From assembly GCA_038833255.1 (NCBI GenBank), contig JAWBIX010000010.1, positions 1 through 12,580 on the forward strand: a DNA stretch of 12,580 bases, read 5' to 3'. Below are positions 665-10,738 of this stretch, piece after piece. The position numbers and the translations under genes were made by a program. The notes under the pieces were generated by a model, which was given only the letters and a program-made list of their open reading frames with translations, had not been told where the DNA came from and ran no database searches. Each line of letters starts with the position of its first letter. Positions within the stretch are counted from its first letter, which is position 1. The DNA comes from Nanopusillaceae archaeon (GTDB lineage: Archaea; Nanobdellota; Nanobdellia; Nanobdellales; Nanobdellaceae).

Positions 665-694
665 TTTAATATTTAAATTGAAAATCTTTTAAAA

Positions 695-743
695 TCTGAG
701 CTCAAGACCCTCATCATTTTTCAGCCGATGAGTTTTTCTTCAT
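695..743 (-). ncRNA. candidate box C/D sRNA (2'-O-methylation guide) with dual guides against tRNA-Leu
   Basis: Minus strand 743->695 reads AUGAAGA(C)-AAAACUCAUCGG-CUGA(D')-AAA-AUGAUGA(C')-GGGUCUUGAGCU-CAGA(D). Both spacers are exactly 12 nt and the D'-C' linker is 3-4 nt, which is the canonical archaeal C/D architecture. The internal boxes are perfect. The terminal boxes each differ from consensus at one position. Both guides are complementary to the tRNA-Leu at 3110..3209 (details in findings). Box C contains the UGA stop of the DHH gene. Confidence 0.6.
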
Positions 744-1638: not shown

Positions 1639-3069
1639 TTATCTACCTGCCGAAATGTTATTTCTAACTCCAGTTCTATTTAATTCTTCACAAGGTACAA
1701 TTCTCCAAAGTGGAGGGACATTACATGGTGTTGGAAATTCTAAACATCTTCCAAAAGGATTACATGCACATACTATTACTTGTGCACACATTTTTTCTTC
1801 CCTAATACGGTTAATAATTCTTAATCTGGCTAATTCTAATAATTTTTCTTTAATTTGCAAAGGATCAGGCATCCATATTGTTATTCTTTCCTCTATTAAT
1901 TCTTTATCTGATGTAAGATTTTCAAAAACTTTTCTATAGGCTCTAGCTATATTCTCTCTTATAATATCTATTTGCTGTTTTTTAAAATCTTTAACAAAAA
2001 TTTCTTTATTCCATCTATATTTATTTATTTCTGATAAACAGTTTAAAATTTCTTTATATGTGTCTTCTTTATTTTCATTAATTATACTAGCTACTTTATA
2101 ATAACACTCTTTATATTCTTCAGGAATATCTTCTAATCTTAGTATAATATCAACAAAAATATCATATATTCTTTCCTTTAATATATTTGTTAACCTTTCC
2201 GTTACTTTCTTTCTTTTTTCTATCATTTCATGATAAACGAAGTTTTCCCTAAATTTTAATACATCTGATAAATTCAATATAATTACAGAGATATTTTGCT
2301 CTTTTAAATATTCTTCACTGATATTTTCTAAAGGAACAATCTCAATACATCTTCCATAAATTAATATCTCTTGTGTTAAATTCCATAAAGCATCTGAGGG
2401 AACTCCTATCCTTAAAACATTACAATTCTTTGCTAACTTTTCTCTTTTTATTTCATAACTTATATTTAGAGATTCTAATTCTTCAGGAATATCTCCTAAA
2501 TTTCCAGTAATTGTAAATATTTTAACTCTTTTTACTCCCAAAGATATAAGTGCATCTAATACATTTTTTTCAAGATTTCCTGGAGTTGTAATAAGCAACG
2601 GAACTTTATTATTTATAGAATATTCTACCGCTTCTCTAACTAAACTTAAAATTCTAAAATTGGCTCTCTCATTAGCTAATTCTTCAGTAATTAATACTGC
2701 TTCTTCTGAATTTTCCCAAAAGTATTTGGCGACTAAAGCTGATGTTTCGAATCTTTCTACACCCCAAATTCTTATAACATTATATCCTAAATCAATTAAT
2801 TCTTTTTCTACATTAAAAGATACTACTGCTGGACCACCAATAATTAAAATCTCCGTTATATTTAATTCTCTTAATTTATTTATAGTTTCATTAGAAAGCT
2901 TATCTCTTTCTAAAAGAATTTGTGGATATCCAAAAATTTCTGATACAACTTTTGCCAATATTGTATCTGCATAAGTTATTTTTGTTGTTGCTAAAACAGT
3001 TTCTGCGCTGATAGGTGTAAATAAAACTAGGCAAGAAGATATAATAACAATTATTTTCCTAATGTCCAT
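1639..3069 (-). CDS. secreted protein with N-terminal signal peptide, putative cell-wall-binding (CWB2-like) repeats, a helical charged region and a Cys-rich C-terminus
   Basis: 476 aa. The N-terminus MDIRKIIVIISSCLVLFTPISA-E looks like a signal peptide. YADTILAKVV..PQILLERDKLSNETINKLRELNITEILIIGGPAVVSFNVEKEL and RIWGVERFETSALVAKYF match the CWB2 repeat pattern (A-a-a-pilL...l...l-I-GG-aVs ; RI-G-dRyeTs-iA). A second repeat (VPLLITTPGNLEKNVLDALISLGVKRVKIF) and a third degenerate repeat follow. The last about 50 aa carry 6 Cys. Confidence 0.55.
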   Translation of the reverse strand: MDIRKIIVIISSCLVLFTPISAETVLATTKITYADTILAKVVSEIFGYPQILLERDKLSNETINKLRELNITEILIIGGPAVVSFNVEKELIDLGYNVIRIWGVERFETSALVAKYFWENSEEAVLITEELANERANFRILSLVREAVEYSINNKVPLLITTPGNLEKNVLDALISLGVKRVKIFTITGNLGDIPEELESLNISYEIKREKLAKNCNVLRIGVPSDALWNLTQEILIYGRCIEIVPLENISEEYLKEQNISVIILNLSDVLKFRENFVYHEMIEKRKKVTERLTNILKERIYDIFVDIILRLEDIPEEYKECYYKVASIINENKEDTYKEILNCLSEINKYRWNKEIFVKDFKKQQIDIIRENIARAYRKVFENLTSDKELIEERITIWMPDPLQIKEKLLELARLRIINRIREEKMCAQVIVCACNPFGRCLEFPTPCNVPPLWRIVPCEELNRTGVRNNISAGR

Positions 3070-3109: not shown

Positions 3110-3209
3110 TGCGGGGGCGGGGATTTGAACCCCGGACGGGCCTAAACCCATCGGGTCTCTTACTTTTCGGTCTTAAGCCCGACCCCTTTGACCTCTCGGG
3201 CACCCCCGC
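3110..3209 (-). tRNA. tRNA-Leu (anticodon UAA), class II long variable arm, with a 15-nt intron at the canonical 37/38 position; no encoded CCA
   Basis: Minus strand reads GCGGGGG-UG-CCC-GAGAGGUCAAA-GGG-G-UCGGG-CUUAAG[ACCGAAAAGUAAGAG]A-CCCGA-UGGGUUUAGGCCCGUC-CGGGG-UUCAAAU-CCCCG-CCCCCGC-A. There is a perfect 7-bp acceptor stem, a 5-bp T stem with UUCAAAU loop, a 3-bp D stem typical of class II tRNAs, a 16-nt variable region, and discriminator A73. The intron folds into a bulge-helix-bulge motif. Confidence 0.92.
3157..3171 (-). other. tRNA intron (15 nt) in a bulge-helix-bulge splice motif
   Basis: CUUA (positions 32-35) pairs with UAAG inside the intron to give the 4-bp central helix. It is flanked on opposite strands by two identical 3-nt bulges, AGA and AGA. 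Cleavage after the second bulge nucleotide yields a 7-nt loop CUUAAGA. Because the intron starts with A and is followed by A, the boundaries can shift by 1 nt without changing the product. Confidence 0.8.
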
Positions 3210-3265: not shown

Positions 3266-3688
3266 ATGGTAACAATTTACAAAAAACTTGGATTATCGAT
3301 TTATCAAGGAAGAGATTGGAGAAAAGAAAGTGGTAAAAAGATTACTCCATTTAAAAAAAAGAGAAAATATGAATATGGAAGATTTCCTATATTAACAAAA
3401 ATAGGTAATGATGAACTAAGATATGCTGTAAGAACAAAGGGAGGACTAATTAAAATAAAATTAAAAAATGCTGTTTATGCAAATGTTTTAGATCCTGAAA
3501 CTAAGATAGTAAAAAAAGCTAAAATAATTGATGTTGTAAAAAATCCTTCTGATAGAAATTTAGACAGAATGAAGGTTATAACTAAAAATTGTATTATAAA
3601 AACAGAGATTGGAGATGCTATAGTAACTTCAAGACCAGGTCAGGATGGAGTAATAAATGCTATACTTATAAAGCCTCAAGGAAAATAA
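3266..3688 (+). CDS. rps8e: 30S ribosomal protein S8e
   Basis: LSIYQGRDWRKESGKK..., ...KIKLKNAVYANVLDPETK... and IVTSRPGQDGVINAILI match the S8e family pattern (QGR--RK-SGG ; YANV-DP-T ; VTSRPGQ-G-VNA-L). The ORF-track start at 3242 lies inside the TATA-like element, so I prefer ATG 3266 as a leaderless start. The alternative extent is 3242..3688. Confidence 0.85.
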   Translation: MVTIYKKLGLSIYQGRDWRKESGKKITPFKKKRKYEYGRFPILTKIGNDELRYAVRTKGGLIKIKLKNAVYANVLDPETKIVKKAKIIDVVKNPSDRNLDRMKVITKNCIIKTEIGDAIVTSRPGQDGVINAILIKPQGK

Positions 3689-3719: not shown

Positions 3720-3938
3720 ATGGAAATATCAAGACCTTTAGATATAATAAATCAATCTAAAGGAAAGCTAGTAATAGTAGAGATGAAAAATGGAAAGCAA
3801 TATAAAGGAAAATTGGTTGCATGGGACGCTCATCCAAATATAGTATTAGAGGATGTGATAGAAATAGATAATAATAATAAGTACCCTTGGATATTTTTGA
3901 GAGGTGATAACGTATCTTGTGTAAAACCGGGTGAGTAG
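3720..3938 (+). CDS. Sm-like archaeal protein (SmAP/LSm)
   Basis: RPLDIINQSKGKLVIVEMKNGKQYKGKLVAWDAHPNIVLEDV (Sm1) and IFLRGDNVSCVKP (Sm2) fit the Sm fold motifs (G-L--FD-HMNLVL-D ; RGDN). The track starts at TTG 3714. ATG 3720 sits about 21 nt downstream of TATA-like AATTTAAAT and is the more likely start. The stop TAG overlaps the GTG start of the next gene by 1 nt. Confidence 0.85.
   Translation: MEISRPLDIINQSKGKLVIVEMKNGKQYKGKLVAWDAHPNIVLEDVIEIDNNNKYPWIFLRGDNVSCVKPGE
3929..3934 (+). promoter_or_regulatory. Shine-Dalgarno-like GGGTGA upstream of the GTG start of the GTPase gene
   Basis: GGGTGA lies 3 nt upstream of GTG 3938 and is complementary to the conserved archaeal 16S 3' tail (..UCACCUCC). 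It is the only clear SD-like element I saw, and it precedes an internal operon gene. Confidence 0.4.
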
Positions 3939-9847: not shown

Positions 9848-10738
9848 ATGATTGATTTAGATAGTTTCATAAAAGAATTAATAAACCAAATTCCTGAAGG
9901 GAGAATTTCTACATTTAAATGTATTTCAGATGCTTTAGGGAGTCATTATGCAATAAAATATGTTGCTTCTATATATAAAAAACTTGAATGTCCGTGGTGG
10001 AGAGTTGTTAATGAATCTGGAATTGTAAATGATGATTTTCAAAAGAAAAAGCTAATTGAAGAAGGAATAGAGATTATAAATAATAAAATAGATATAAAAA
10101 AATATCTTTTTAAAGATTTTAAAATAAAAATAAAACCACTAGAATATTTAAGAAAGATTCAAATTGAGATGTCTAAAAAGATTTCTTTAAATGACGAGTT
10201 TGAAAAAATAGAATATATTGGTGGCGTTGATATTGGATATAAAAATAATGTTGCAAAAGTTGTTTATGTAATATTAGACAAAAATCTTATTTTATTGAAA
10301 AAGTATATTTTTATAGAAAAGATAGAGTTTCCATATATTCCTACGTTTTTATCTTTTAGAGAAGGAGAACCGATAATTAAAACATTTAATAAAATCGATA
10401 AAATTGATATTTTATTTGTAAATGGTTTTGGAATAGCCCATCCTGTTAAAATGGGATTGGCAAGTTGGATTGGAGTAAAATTAGATATACCAACAATTGG
10501 TATAACAAAATCTCTTTTATATGGAAAGGTAGTAGAAGATAAAATAATTGATGAAAAAAGTAACGAAATTTTAGGATATGTTATTAGAAAGTTTAATAAA
10601 AAAATTTATACATCTCCTGGAAACAAAGTTTCGTTAAAAACTTGTAAAGAATTATCAGAAAGATTTTGGATTAAAGGAAATTATCCAGAGCCAATAAGAC
10701 TTGCTGATGAGATTAGTAAAAAAATATCTATTCCTTAA
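9848..10738 (+). CDS. nfi: fusion protein: N-terminal alkyltransferase-like (MGMT DNA-binding fold, no acceptor Cys) domain plus C-terminal endonuclease V
   Basis: The N-terminal about 75 aa read FIKELINQIPEGRISTFKCISDALGSHYAIKYVASIYKKLECPWWRVVNESG. This follows the MGMT C-domain pattern (IP-G---tY--iA--lG ... PCHRVv---G) but has PWWRV in place of PCHRV. The remainder aligns unambiguously to endonuclease V: GGVDIGY, FPYIPTFLSFREGEP, VNGFGIAHPVKMGLASWIG, IPTIGITKSLLYG, PEPIRLAD. Confidence 0.85.
   Translation: MIDLDSFIKELINQIPEGRISTFKCISDALGSHYAIKYVASIYKKLECPWWRVVNESGIVNDDFQKKKLIEEGIEIINNKIDIKKYLFKDFKIKIKPLEYLRKIQIEMSKKISLNDEFEKIEYIGGVDIGYKNNVAKVVYVILDKNLILLKKYIFIEKIEFPYIPTFLSFREGEPIIKTFNKIDKIDILFVNGFGIAHPVKMGLASWIGVKLDIPTIGITKSLLYGKVVEDKIIDEKSNEILGYVIRKFNKKIYTSPGNKVSLKTCKELSERFWIKGNYPEPIRLADEISKKISIP

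What the first reader, a model, noticed from the sequence alone, without database searches (positions are those of the whole stretch)
695..743. Unannotated box C/D sRNA whose two guides both target the tRNA-Leu(UAA) in this window, predicting Um34 (wobble) and Um44
The 75-nt spacer between the DHH gene and the membrane-protein gene reads, on the minus strand, AUGAAGA-AAAACUCAUCGG-CUGA-AAA-AUGAUGA-GGGUCUUGAGCU-CAGA. That is C-12nt-D'-linker-C'-12nt-D, with the spacing characteristic of archaeal C/D sRNAs. (1) D' guide: 3'-GGCUACUCAAA-5' pairs with tRNA 5'-CCGAUGGGUUU-3' (C40 into the variable arm). This gives 11 contiguous pairs, 10 Watson-Crick plus 1 G.U. (2) D guide: 3'-UCGAGUUCUGGG-5' pairs with the spliced tRNA 5'-GGCUUAAGACCC-3' (G30-C41), giving 12 contiguous pairs, 10 Watson-Crick plus 2 G.U. 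With the intron-containing precursor it gives 11 pairs, because the intron also begins ACC. By the N+5 rule the D guide selects U34 (window position 3175) and the D' guide selects U44 (position 3150). Two independent 11-12-bp matches from a 49-nt element to one 100-nt gene are very unlikely by chance. My rough estimate, allowing G.U, is well below 1e-4. Guide-directed ribose methylation of tRNA position 34 has precedents in archaea: the pre-tRNA-Trp intron, and a trans guide for elongator tRNA-Met. A dual guide dedicated to a class II tRNA-Leu with a position-44 target is unusual. Caveat: the pair at the U34 target site is G.U. A tRNA-Leu(CAA) with the same anticodon arm would give a perfect Watson-Crick match and could be the primary substrate (Cm34). 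In the mature tRNA the two target sites overlap at C40-C41. In the precursor they are separated by the intron, so simultaneous engagement would only be possible before splicing; this point is inference. The two guides are also colinear with the antisense of the tRNA, so origin from an inverted partial tRNA copy is conceivable; this is speculation.
Basis: partly seen in the sequence, partly recalled or inferred. Interest (0 to 1): 0.85.

Follow-up and report, generated by a model that had tools for sequence, protein, structure and literature searches.

The report
Methylation guide RNA for leucine tRNAs
This is a real, conserved but unannotated small guide RNA of a tiny hot-spring archaeon, built to direct sugar methylation of the anticodon of its leucine tRNAs, and it is a new example of a well-known class rather than a new kind of element.

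Summary
The element is at window 695-743 (minus strand), exactly as described: C-12nt-D'-3nt-C'-12nt-D. It is the only such motif in the window, against about 0.0007 expected by chance.

It is a genuine archaeal box C/D sRNA gene.
- It forms a sharp island of conservation (36 of 49 columns invariant, against 1 of 51 in the flanks) in seven Nanopusillaceae lineages, in three different gene contexts.
- Its unusual UGAAGA/CAGA box pair is the variant found in RNA-seq-verified Nanoarchaeum equitans sRNAs. One lineage has switched both boxes together to UGAUGA/CUGA.

Both guides pair with the window's intron-containing tRNA-Leu(UAA), and N+5 falls on U34 and U44, as claimed. However, the D guide makes only a G.U pair at U34. 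It matches intronless tRNA-Leu(CAA) genes that I found in relatives perfectly (G-C at C34).

The same guide core occurs in N. equitans sRNA12. Position-34 guides for tRNA-Leu(CAA) and tRNA-Leu(UAA) were already predicted in Pyrococcus.

The most likely function is Cm34 on tRNA-Leu(CAA), possibly Um34 on tRNA-Leu(UAA), and Um44 on tRNA-Leu(UAA) through the D' guide. It is a new member of a known kind, of moderate interest. No expression or methylation data exist.

The parts
695..743 (-). Core of the box C/D sRNA gene (49 nt). The transcript probably extends a few nt further on each side.
   Evidence: Sequence. Only C/D-architecture match in the window. Conserved island in 7 lineages.
737..743 (-). 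Box C, AUGAAGA (variant of RUGAUGA). Contains the TGA stop codon of the DHH gene (742-740).
   Evidence: UGAAGA goes with CAGA in 7 of 9 N. equitans sRNAs, while UGAUGA goes with CAGA in 0 of 13.
725..736 (-). D' guide AAAACUCAUCGG. Pairs with C40 through the 5' strand of the variable arm of tRNA-Leu(UAA). N+5 is U44.
   Evidence: Core AAACUCAUCG kept in 5 of 7 lineages.
721..724 (-). Box D', CUGA
   Evidence: Invariant in all orthologs.
718..720 (-). D'-C' linker (AAA). Free to vary: TTT, TAT, GAT, TAA or AA in orthologs.
711..717 (-). Box C', AUGAUGA (consensus)
699..710 (-). D guide GGGUCUUGAGCU. The core GGUCUUGAGC is invariant. Pairs with G30/31-C40/41 of tRNA-Leu. N+5 is position 34, giving G.U with U34 of UAA and G-C with C34 of CAA.
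   Evidence: Same core as the D' guide of N. equitans sRNA12.
695..698 (-). Box D, CAGA (variant of CUGA that matches the UGAAGA box C)
   Evidence: Ortholog L031 has UGAUGA plus CUGA, a double change.
691..694 (-). T-run directly after box D, a possible archaeal termination signal (inference)
   Evidence: Present after box D in 5 of 7 orthologs and in many N. equitans sRNA genes.
3110..3209 (-). tRNA-Leu(UAA) gene, class II, with an intron
   Evidence: Rfam tRNA, 47.9 bits. Exons identical in L001, L003, L005 and L030.
3157..3171 (-). 15-nt intron at 37/38 (ACCGAAAAGUAAGAG). Its first three nt, ACC, repeat A38-C39-C40.
   Evidence: ACC is invariant in 13 distinct introns of 15-25 nt.
3169..3179 (-). 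D-guide target in the precursor (G30-G37 plus intron ACC). U34 is at 3175.
3144..3154 (-). D'-guide target (C40 to the variable arm). U44 is at 3150.

Best explanation
Window 695-743 (minus) is a bona fide archaeal box C/D methylation-guide sRNA gene of a Nanopusillaceae (Nanoarchaeota) organism. It is a lineage-wide 'tRNA-Leu(UUR)' guide.

Inferred from the established C/D RNP mechanism: the RNA folds into a terminal C/D k-turn and an internal C'/D' k-turn, binds L7Ae, Nop5 and fibrillarin, and methylates the 2'-OH of the target nucleotide paired to the fifth guide nucleotide upstream of D or D'.

The D guide is a wobble-position guide. Its invariant 10-nt core is perfectly complementary to G31-C40 of tRNA-Leu(CAA), giving Cm34. 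It pairs with tRNA-Leu(UAA) with a single G.U exactly at U34, so Um34 is possible but not assured.

The D' guide pairs with the 3' strand of the anticodon stem and the 5' strand of the variable arm of tRNA-Leu(UAA) and selects U44.

On the mature tRNA the two target sites abut or overlap. The intron of pre-tRNA-Leu(UAA) starts with ACC, a copy of A38-C39-C40. Both guides can therefore engage the precursor together, separated by a linker of about 14 nt. This last point is inference.
For: Architecture and chance:
- The layout is 7-12-4-3-7-12-4 nt and is the only such motif in the window. About 0.0007 are expected.
- There are weak but consistent hits to six archaeal C/D Rfam families at exactly this place and strand.

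Box variant:
- UGAAGA/CAGA is the pair seen in RNA-seq-verified N. equitans sRNAs: 7 of 9 against 0 of 13, Fisher p = 2e-4.
- Ortholog L031 changed both boxes together to UGAUGA/CUGA.

Conservation:
- 36 of 49 element columns are invariant against 1 of 51 flank columns, p = 4e-15. Flanking-protein identity falls to 46% in these lineages.
- Variation is confined to the linker and to guide nucleotides 1 and 12.
- The element keeps its sequence while sitting after DHH, after a CWB2 gene, or before DHH.

Targets:
- 11-12 bp to tRNA-Leu(UAA) for both guides, p about 1e-4 each.
- tRNA-Leu(CAA) genes were found in L152 (25.5% GC Nanopusillaceae MAG), in L154 (Nanoclepta, the same assembly as sRNA locus L006) and in L155 (Nanobdella, the same genome as sRNA locus L010). 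They give a Watson-Crick pair at C34.
- The D' guide of N. equitans sRNA12 gives 11 Watson-Crick bp to its tRNA-Leu(CAA).

Precedent:
- Pyrococcus guides for position 34 of tRNA-Leu(CAA) and tRNA-Leu(UAA).
- One third of Pyrobaculum sRNAs target tRNAs, including position 34.
- N. equitans has fibrillarin and Nop56.
Against: - There are no expression or modification data for any of these organisms.
- All Rfam scores (16-21 bits) are below the gathering thresholds of 36-45 bits.
- The pair at U34 of the window's own tRNA is G.U. A Watson-Crick pair at the site is considered critical.
- I found a tRNA-Leu(CAA) gene in relatives, not in the window's own genome.
- The D' duplex shrinks to 9 bp in Nanobdella. 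In L031 it is 8 bp with a mismatch at guide nucleotide 2.
- I know of no report of Um44 in archaeal tRNA.
- No rRNA of this lineage was available, so an rRNA target for the D' guide cannot be excluded.
- Genes for fibrillarin, Nop5 and L7Ae were not seen in the small part of these genomes that I held.
Confidence: 0.8

Rival explanations
1. The sRNA is dedicated to the tRNA-Leu(UAA) encoded 2.4 kb away and installs both Um34 and Um44 on it, and tRNA-Leu(CAA) is irrelevant.
For: Both guides pair best, in number of base pairs, with tRNA-Leu(UAA): 12 and 11 bp. In Nanobdella the arms of the D guide fit UAA (11 bp) better than CAA (9 bp). The D' guide fits only UAA well.
Against: Guide nucleotide 5 is G in all seven Nanopusillaceae orthologs and in N. 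equitans sRNA12. An A would give a Watson-Crick pair with U34 and is only one transition away in genomes of about 26% GC. The G gives a Watson-Crick pair with C34 of the CAA isoacceptor in every genome where I could find that gene. A non-Watson-Crick pair at the target site is thought to block methylation.
Confidence: 0.12
2. Only the D guide is a methylation guide. The D' guide is either a non-catalytic anchor or chaperone arm that increases affinity for (pre-)tRNA-Leu(UAA), or it has a different true target such as rRNA.
For: In Pyrobaculum about 80% of tRNA-targeting sRNAs have only one productive guide. Double guides are proposed to stabilise binding and to act as chaperones even where one site is not methylated. 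The D' duplex is eroded in L031 and Nanobdella. N. equitans sRNA12 combines the tRNA-Leu position-34 guide with an rRNA guide.
Against: The D' guide has a clean A-U pair at N+5 and 11 contiguous pairs in three lineages. Such a match to the same 21-nt stretch of the same tRNA has a chance probability of about 1e-4. Its 10-nt core is conserved far above the flanks. No comparable match was found in 234 kb of Nanoarchaeota DNA or in an unrelated archaeal rRNA operon.
Confidence: 0.25
3. The element is not an RNA gene. It is a chance box-like motif, a conserved 3'-UTR or terminator element of the DHH operon, or a decaying inverted fragment of a tRNA-Leu gene.
For: The two guides are colinear with the antisense of the mature tRNA. 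The element overlaps the DHH stop codon and is followed by a T-run. Rfam scores are below threshold.
Against: The motif is not expected by chance. It is conserved as a discrete 49-nt island while its neighbouring genes change. The insertion between the two antisense segments is exactly a D'/linker/C' module. The C and D boxes change together. A decaying fragment would not keep 36 of 49 positions invariant while the 3-nt linker randomises.
Confidence: 0.02

Closest known systems
Nanoarchaeum equitans C/D box sRNA12 (Randau 2012, PMC3491384, Additional file 2)
   Same: It comes from the same phylum and was verified by RNA-seq. Its guide AGGUCUUGAGCC has the same 10-nt core (GGUCUUGAGC) as the D guide here. 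It gives 11 Watson-Crick bp to N. equitans tRNA-Leu(CAA) with N+5 at C34. The overall format is the same compact 12-nt-spacer layout.
   Different: In sRNA12 the tRNA-Leu guide sits in the D' slot and the other guide is an rRNA guide (23S-2309). The published target prediction considered only rRNA (a weak 23S-17 hit), so its tRNA-Leu target was not noted. There is no U44 guide.
[quoted passage not shown] Also the snoRNAdb predictions for P. furiosus: tRNA-Leu(CAA) C34 and tRNA-Leu(UAA) G47 (PMC7668247).
   Same: The chemistry, the substrate family and the wobble-position target are the same. A variable-region target in tRNA-Leu(UAA) is also predicted there.
   Different: According to that review, Pyrococcus uses separate sRNAs for the two isoacceptors. 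Here a single guide with G at N+5 faces both C34 and U34, and the second guide hits the same tRNA at U44. The Pyrococcus predictions were not confirmed by mass spectrometry in the tRNAs analysed.
The pre-tRNA-Trp intron C/D guide (Cm34 and Um39) and the rare dual-guide tRNA sRNAs of Pyrobaculum (sR46, sR61, sR123, sR126; PMC6009581)
   Same: Two guides of one C/D RNA address two sites in the anticodon arm region of one tRNA. Action on an intron-containing precursor is established for tRNA-Trp.
   Different: The element here is a free-standing gene acting in trans, not an intron. Its second site lies at the junction with the variable region (position 44), not at 39.
Protein-only enzymes for the same modification: bacterial TrmL (Cm34 and cmnm5Um34 of tRNA-Leu CAA/UAA) and eukaryotic Trm7/FTSJ1. 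For Um44, yeast Trm44, which acts on tRNA-Ser (own knowledge).
   Same: They modify the same nucleotide (ribose of position 34) in the same two isoacceptors (abstracts of PMC4615657 and PMC3763551). This suggests the same decoding role at UUR codons.
   Different: Their mechanism and ancestry are unrelated: protein recognition rather than RNA guidance.

Membership tests
Archaeal box C/D sRNA (2'-O-methylation guide) | Box C (RUGAUGA) near the 5' end and box D (CUGA) near the 3' end, able to form a k-turn | tested here: met
   The boxes are AUGAAGA and CAGA, so the U.U position of the k-turn is A.A. The same pair occurs in 7 of 9 N. equitans sRNAs with UGAAGA and in 0 of 13 with UGAUGA. L031 carries UGAUGA plus CUGA, a double change. 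Actual k-turn formation is inferred.
Archaeal box C/D sRNA (2'-O-methylation guide) | Internal C' and D' boxes | tested here: met
   AUGAUGA and CUGA both match the consensus. D' is invariant, and C' is invariant except for UGACGA in L011.
Archaeal box C/D sRNA (2'-O-methylation guide) | Two guide spacers of about 12 nt, a short D'-C' linker and a total length of about 50-60 nt | tested here: met
   The spacers are 12 and 12 nt, the linker is 3 nt and the core is 49 nt. The format is the same as the 26 N. equitans sRNAs.
Archaeal box C/D sRNA (2'-O-methylation guide) | At least 9 contiguous guide-target pairs to a stable RNA, spanning the N+5 nucleotide, with a Watson-Crick pair at that nucleotide | tested here: met
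   D' guide: 11 bp with A-U at U44 of tRNA-Leu(UAA). D guide: 10-12 bp with G-C at C34 of tRNA-Leu(CAA) in relatives, and 12 bp but G.U at U34 of the window's tRNA-Leu(UAA).
Archaeal box C/D sRNA (2'-O-methylation guide) | Boxes and guide cores conserved in orthologs while linker and flanks drift | tested here: met
   36 of 49 element columns are invariant against 1 of 51 flank columns. The linker is randomised.
Archaeal box C/D sRNA (2'-O-methylation guide) | Score above the gathering threshold of a curated Rfam C/D family | tested here: not met
   Best scores are 21.3 bits (snoPyro_CD, threshold 45) and 20.3 bits (sR14, threshold 38). These models are lineage- and guide-specific, so a miss is expected for a new guide family. 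It is not a defining biological feature.
Archaeal box C/D sRNA (2'-O-methylation guide) | Accumulates as a stable small RNA bound by L7Ae, Nop5 and fibrillarin | not testable with these tools
   No transcriptome is available. N. equitans has fibrillarin (NEQ125) and Nop56 (NEQ342). None of these genes lay in the roughly 250 kb of Nanoarchaeota loci I held.
Archaeal box C/D sRNA (2'-O-methylation guide) | Predicted nucleotides are actually 2'-O-methylated | not testable with these tools
   No modification data exist for any Nanopusillaceae tRNA.
Ortholog of N. equitans sRNA12 | Same guide sequence in the same slot, with the same partner guide | tested here: not met
   The guide core is identical at 10 of 10 positions, but it lies in the D' slot of sRNA12 and in the D slot here. 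The partner guides are unrelated: 23S rRNA there, tRNA-Leu U44 here. The guide is homologous, but this is not a one-to-one ortholog in architecture.

The most novel reading that the evidence does not exclude
One sRNP serves both UUR-decoding leucine tRNAs of these reduced genomes. The invariant G at N+5 is retained because it can face both C34 (CAA) and U34 (UAA).

The weak G.U site on tRNA-Leu(UAA) is rescued by two-point capture of the unspliced precursor. The intron's invariant 5' ACC mimics A38-C39-C40, so the D guide can form its full 10-bp core without touching exon 2. The D' guide then clamps exon 2 (C40/41 to the variable arm) across a linker of about 14 nt.

If so, wobble and position-44 methylation of tRNA-Leu(UAA) would be obligatorily pre-splicing. 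The retention of this intron in every Nanopusillaceae genome examined (13 distinct introns), while tRNA-Leu(CAA) is always intronless, would be explained by the guide RNA.
Probability: 0.2. Interest if true: 0.6.

Novelty: new member of a known kind. Interest (0 to 1): 0.4.

Why it matters
The finding adds an unannotated, lineage-wide RNA gene to Nanopusillaceae genomes. These are among the smallest archaeal genomes, so anything retained is probably important.

It gives a better target assignment for an experimentally detected N. equitans sRNA (sRNA12), namely tRNA-Leu(CAA) C34.

It supports the view that ribose methylation of the wobble nucleotide of UUR tRNA-Leu occurs in all three domains. 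Bacteria use TrmL, eukaryotes use Trm7, and archaea appear to use C/D guides.

It also offers a compact natural test case for two open mechanistic questions. The first is whether a C/D RNP can methylate across a G.U pair at the target site. The second is whether tRNA introns are kept because guide RNAs need the precursor.

Tried and rejected
- ARAGORN on the window found no tRNA. This was a false negative caused by the intron, and Rfam found the gene.
- An exact-sequence look-up of the window's DHH protein found nothing. Homologs did.
- PMC92551 (Clouet d'Orval 2001) is not held, so the Pyrococcus precedent is cited through reviews. One literature query returned nothing and three were rejected for syntax.
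- Nanobsidianus stetteri (L007) and MC-1 (L008) have a DHH gene but no sRNA next to it. Synteny is broken there, and the sRNA, if present, lies elsewhere.
- The genome-wide pattern for tRNA-Leu required the TCGGG/CCCGA arm. It therefore missed the Nanopusillus-type and Nanobdella-type CAA genes. Those were recovered from the metagenome scan and through synteny with the phosphoglycerate mutase gene (apgM).
- tblastn with fibrillarin and L7Ae sequences recalled from memory found no hit in the held Nanoarchaeota loci. This is uninformative because those loci cover little of the genomes.
- No Nanoarchaeota rRNA is among the held loci. A scan of an unrelated archaeal rRNA operon gave only 8-9 bp background hits.
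- The guide/target comparison produced no clean compensatory change. The tRNA target is nearly invariant, and the one core change in the D' guide (A to G in Nanobdella and L031) only turns an A-U pair into G.U.
- The 9-10 bp matches of the D guide to the S8e and LSm coding regions are at background frequency, and I set them aside.
- ViennaRNA folds of the precursor anticodon arm do not model the bulge-helix-bulge motif. I used them only to list the introns.
Full report
**What is in the sequence**

The minus strand of window 743..695 reads ATGAAGA-AAAACTCATCGG-CTGA-AAA-ATGATGA-GGGTCTTGAGCT-CAGA. It lies in the 75-nt spacer between a DHH-family ORF (740-1621) and a 141-aa membrane ORF (239-664), both on the minus strand. 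The DHH stop codon TGA is part of box C.

A permissive regular expression for C-spacer-D'-linker-C'-spacer-D finds this site and no other in the 12.6 kb, on either strand. In 3000 first-order Markov shuffles of the window the loose motif occurred 0.0007 times per window and a stricter one never.

Rfam in E-value mode gives weak hits to six archaeal C/D families at exactly this place and strand (16-21 bits). All are below the gathering thresholds of 36-45 bits.

**The tRNA**

ARAGORN reported no tRNA. Rfam's tRNA model matches 3110-3209 (minus) at 47.9 bits with a 17-nt insertion in the anticodon loop.

Read directly, this is a class II tRNA. Its anticodon stem is UCGGG/CCCGA and its loop is C-U-U-A-A-G-[intron]-A, so it is tRNA-Leu(UAA). 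It carries a 15-nt intron (ACCGAAAAGUAAGAG) at the canonical 37/38 site.

The intron's UAAG can pair with C32-A35, as expected for a bulge-helix-bulge splice motif. That is my reading and was not tested.

**The complementarities**

I recomputed these.
- The D guide forms 12 contiguous pairs with G30-C41 of the spliced tRNA (2 G.U) and 11 with the precursor. The fifth nucleotide upstream of box D faces U34 (window 3175) as a G.U pair.
- The D' guide forms 11 contiguous pairs (1 G.U) with C40 through the 5' strand of the variable arm. Its fifth nucleotide faces U44 (window 3150) as an A-U pair.

Random or shuffled 12-mers reach these scores against this tRNA in 8-9 of 40000 trials (D) and 2-19 of 40000 trials (D').

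Across 234 kb of Nanoarchaeota DNA, both strands, hits of 11 bp or more were confined to three classes: tRNA-Leu genes, the element's own antisense, and two isolated sites.

**Source organism**

The DHH protein's best homologs (94%, 79% and 64% identity, and lower) are from Nanopusillaceae MAGs, Nanoclepta (NZ13-N), strain YN1 and Nanobdella aerobiophila. The window has about 26% GC, while its tRNA has 64% GC. This fits a thermophilic nanoarchaeon.

**Conservation**

Loci carrying the DHH homologs and one locus from the tRNA scan contain the same element in seven distinct forms.

In the alignment, 36 of the 49 element columns are invariant against 1 of 51 flanking columns (Fisher p = 4e-15). 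The variable positions are the 3-nt D'-C' linker (AAA, TTT, TAT, GAT, TAA, AA), the first and last nucleotide of each guide, and a few box-flanking bases.

From my own knowledge of published C/D RNP structures, only about 10 of the 12 spacer nucleotides pair with substrate. The observed pattern of variation matches that expectation.

The D-guide core GGUCUUGAGC is invariant. The D'-guide core is AAACUCAUCG in five lineages and AGACUCAUC(G/A) in two.

The element keeps its sequence while its neighbours change.
- It follows DHH in the window clade and in Nanoclepta.
- It follows a CWB2-domain gene in YN1 and Nanobdella.
- It directly precedes DHH in L011.

That behaviour fits an independent gene, not a UTR of one particular mRNA.

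**The odd boxes are the nanoarchaeal variant**

Box C here is UGAAGA and box D is CAGA. This replaces the U.U pair of the consensus k-turn with A.A.

I parsed the 26 RNA-seq-verified N. equitans sRNAs from Randau 2012.
- UGAAGA as box C goes with CAGA as box D in 7 of 9 cases.
- UGAUGA goes with CAGA in 0 of 13 cases (Fisher p = 2e-4).

The internal C'/D' pair of the element is the consensus UGAUGA/CUGA. In the Nanopusillus MAG of L031 the terminal pair has switched on both sides to UGAUGA/CUGA. This is a concerted change that preserves a like-with-like pair.

This is the strongest structural evidence available without experiments.

**What the guides are for**

I tested this in four steps.
1. 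A genome-wide pattern scan recovered tRNA-Leu(UAA) genes, always with a 37/38 intron, from 13 Nanopusillaceae genomes. It also recovered intronless tRNA-Leu(CAA) genes with the same anticodon arm in N. equitans and in MAG MC-1.
2. A metagenome scan added low-GC Nanopusillus-type CAA genes and two more with the window-type arm.
3. In these contigs the CAA gene sits upstream of the phosphoglycerate mutase gene (apgM) and the S3 and L22 genes. I used that synteny to fetch the region. The sources were a 25.5%-GC Nanopusillaceae MAG (L152), Nanoclepta NZ13-N (L154, the same assembly as sRNA locus L006) and Nanobdella (L155, the same genome as sRNA locus L010 and the tRNA-Leu(UAA) gene in L016).
4. 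All three loci carry an intronless tRNA-Leu(CAA), confirmed by ARAGORN.

The pairing table shows the following.

| Lineage | D guide vs CAA | D guide vs UAA | D' guide vs UAA | D' guide vs CAA |
|---|---|---|---|---|
| Window clade | 12 bp (core 10 bp all Watson-Crick), G-C at C34 | 12 bp, G.U at U34 | 11 bp | 8 bp |
| Nanoclepta | 10 bp, all Watson-Crick, G-C at C34 | 10 bp, G.U at U34 | 11 bp | 8 bp |
| Nanobdella | 9 bp, Watson-Crick at C34 | 11 bp, G.U at U34 | 9 bp | none |
| N. equitans sRNA12 (guide in D' slot) | 11 bp, all Watson-Crick | not available | not applicable | not applicable |

The guide nucleotide facing position 34 is G in all seven Nanopusillaceae orthologs and in N. equitans sRNA12. 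A single G-to-A transition would give a Watson-Crick pair with U34, in genomes that are about 75% A+T.

Dennis et al. 2015 treat a Watson-Crick pair at the target site as critical. They regard guides with a mismatch there as binding without methylating.

My reading is as follows.
- The D guide is primarily a Cm34 guide for tRNA-Leu(CAA).
- It may also serve U34 of tRNA-Leu(UAA), because G can face both bases.
- The D' guide is a U44 guide that prefers tRNA-Leu(UAA).

**Precursor versus mature tRNA (inference)**

On the mature tRNA the two duplexes overlap at C40-C41. If only the 10-nt cores pair, they abut at C40/C41.

All 13 distinct tRNA-Leu(UAA) introns (15-25 nt, otherwise highly variable) begin with ACC and end with G-U-A-(A/G)-G-A-N. 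The 3' block is explained by the splice motif.

Of the 5' ACC, the first C can pair with an invariant G upstream of UAAG. The second C has a partner in only 8 of 13 lineages, and the window's lineage is not among them. The A lies in a bulge.

ACC repeats A38-C39-C40. The D-guide core can therefore be fully paired within exon 1 plus the intron, which leaves exon 2 free for the D' guide with a linker of about 14 nt.

This is consistent with two-point capture of the precursor. It is also consistent with the intron being present in UAA and absent from CAA. Shared ancestry and splice-motif constraints are alternative explanations.

**Comparison with what is known**

C/D guides for tRNAs are well established.
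- snoRNAdb predicts C34 of tRNA-Leu(CAA) and G47 of tRNA-Leu(UAA) in P. furiosus. Neither was detected in the tRNAs analysed by mass spectrometry (PMC7668247).
- In Pyrobaculum one third of sRNA families target tRNAs, several at position 34. Dual guides for one tRNA are rare: four families (PMC6009581).
- The very same guide core is present in N. equitans sRNA12. There the published prediction considered only rRNA and gave a weak 23S-17 hit.

The element is therefore a new member of a known kind. Its mildly unusual features are three: both guides address one tRNA, the second site is position 44, and one guide faces two isoacceptors.

**What could not be tested**

- Expression, RNP assembly and methylation could not be tested.
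- Fibrillarin, Nop5 and L7Ae are not in the window or in the held nanoarchaeal loci. N. equitans has fibrillarin and Nop56.
- No nanoarchaeal rRNA was available, so an rRNA target of the D' guide is not excluded. An unrelated archaeal rRNA operon shows only background matches.
- The tRNA-Leu(CAA) gene was found in relatives, not in the window's own assembly.

**Verdict**

My confidence is about 0.95 that this is a functional box C/D sRNA gene. It is about 0.8 for the full explanation given above. Interest is moderate (0.4).

Noticed in passing
window 3110-3209 (-): ARAGORN does not call the intron-containing tRNA-Leu(UAA); only the Rfam tRNA model finds it. The same gene, always with a 15-25 nt intron at 37/38, is present in 13 Nanopusillaceae genomes. 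tRNA-Leu(CAA) is always intronless.
   Followed up: yes
window 740-742; L009 12193-12195; L010 12064-12066; L005 6898-6900; L011 314-316: The sRNA boxes double as translation signals of neighbouring genes. The UGA of box C is the stop codon of DHH (window) and of the CWB2 gene (YN1, Nanobdella). In Nanoclepta the DHH ORF runs on to the UGA of box D'. In L011 the last A of box D is the A of the DHH start codon. This is extreme gene packing.
   Followed up: partly
N. equitans sRNA12 (genome 315990-316045; table in PMC3491384): Its D' guide AGGUCUUGAGCC was published with a weak 23S-17 prediction. It is an 11-bp Watson-Crick match to N. equitans tRNA-Leu(CAA) (L024 58-143) with N+5 at C34. The published target should probably be reassigned.
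   Followed up: yes
N. equitans sRNA19 (genome 359412-359470; table in PMC3491384): It has the same box layout as the window element (AUGAAGA-12-CUGA-AAA-AUGAUGA-13-CAGA). Its D' guide AGGCUUUAAGCU is the complement of AGCUUAAAGCCU, which looks like a UAA-type anticodon loop. It may be the tRNA-Leu(UAA) guide of N. equitans. I did not have that tRNA sequence to check.
   Followed up: no
L129 2482-2530 (+); L026 364-412 (+): Another candidate C/D sRNA with UGAAGA/CAGA boxes lies within about 100 nt of the tRNA-Leu(CAA) gene in two nanoarchaeal contigs. Examples: GTGAAGA-TGCCGAGGACAG-CTGA-TTT-ATGATGA-TTCTCTGTTACT-CAGA and ATGAAGA-GGTTGAAAGATAT-CTGA-AT-ATGATGA-ATCCCTGTTACA-CAGA. The targets are unknown.
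   Followed up: no
L031 7112-7160 (-): A further candidate C/D sRNA in the Nanopusillus MAG: GTGATGA-TGCAAGGCAATA-CTGA-ATA-GTGAAGA-TACAACGATGTT-CTGA. It was not analysed.
   Followed up: no
window 3157-3171 (-) and the tRNA-Leu(UAA) genes in L001, L003, L005, L012, L014-L016, L018-L021, L023, L027, L029-L031: The intron always starts with ACC, a copy of A38-C39-C40, although the rest of its 5' half is hypervariable. The second C lacks a pairing partner in about 5 of 13 introns, so the splice motif alone does not obviously explain its invariance.
   Followed up: partly
window 1639-3069 and 740-1621 compared with L009 and L010 10001-12200: The order of the DHH gene and the CWB2-domain surface-protein gene is inverted between the window clade (CWB2 then DHH) and YN1 and Nanobdella (DHH then CWB2). 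The sRNA stays next to the small membrane protein and phosphoglucomutase genes.
   Followed up: partly
window 9848-10738 (+): This 296-aa ORF combines an N-terminal 6-O-methylguanine-DNA-methyltransferase-type DNA-binding domain (PF01035) with endonuclease V (PF04493). It appears to be a fused repair protein.
   Followed up: no
window 3626-3637 and 3726-3737 (+): The D guide also has 9-10 bp complementarity (with G.U pairs) to the sense strand of the S8e and LSm coding regions, and this recurs in several relatives. The match length is at background frequency, so this is probably coincidence arising from conserved codons.
   Followed up: partly
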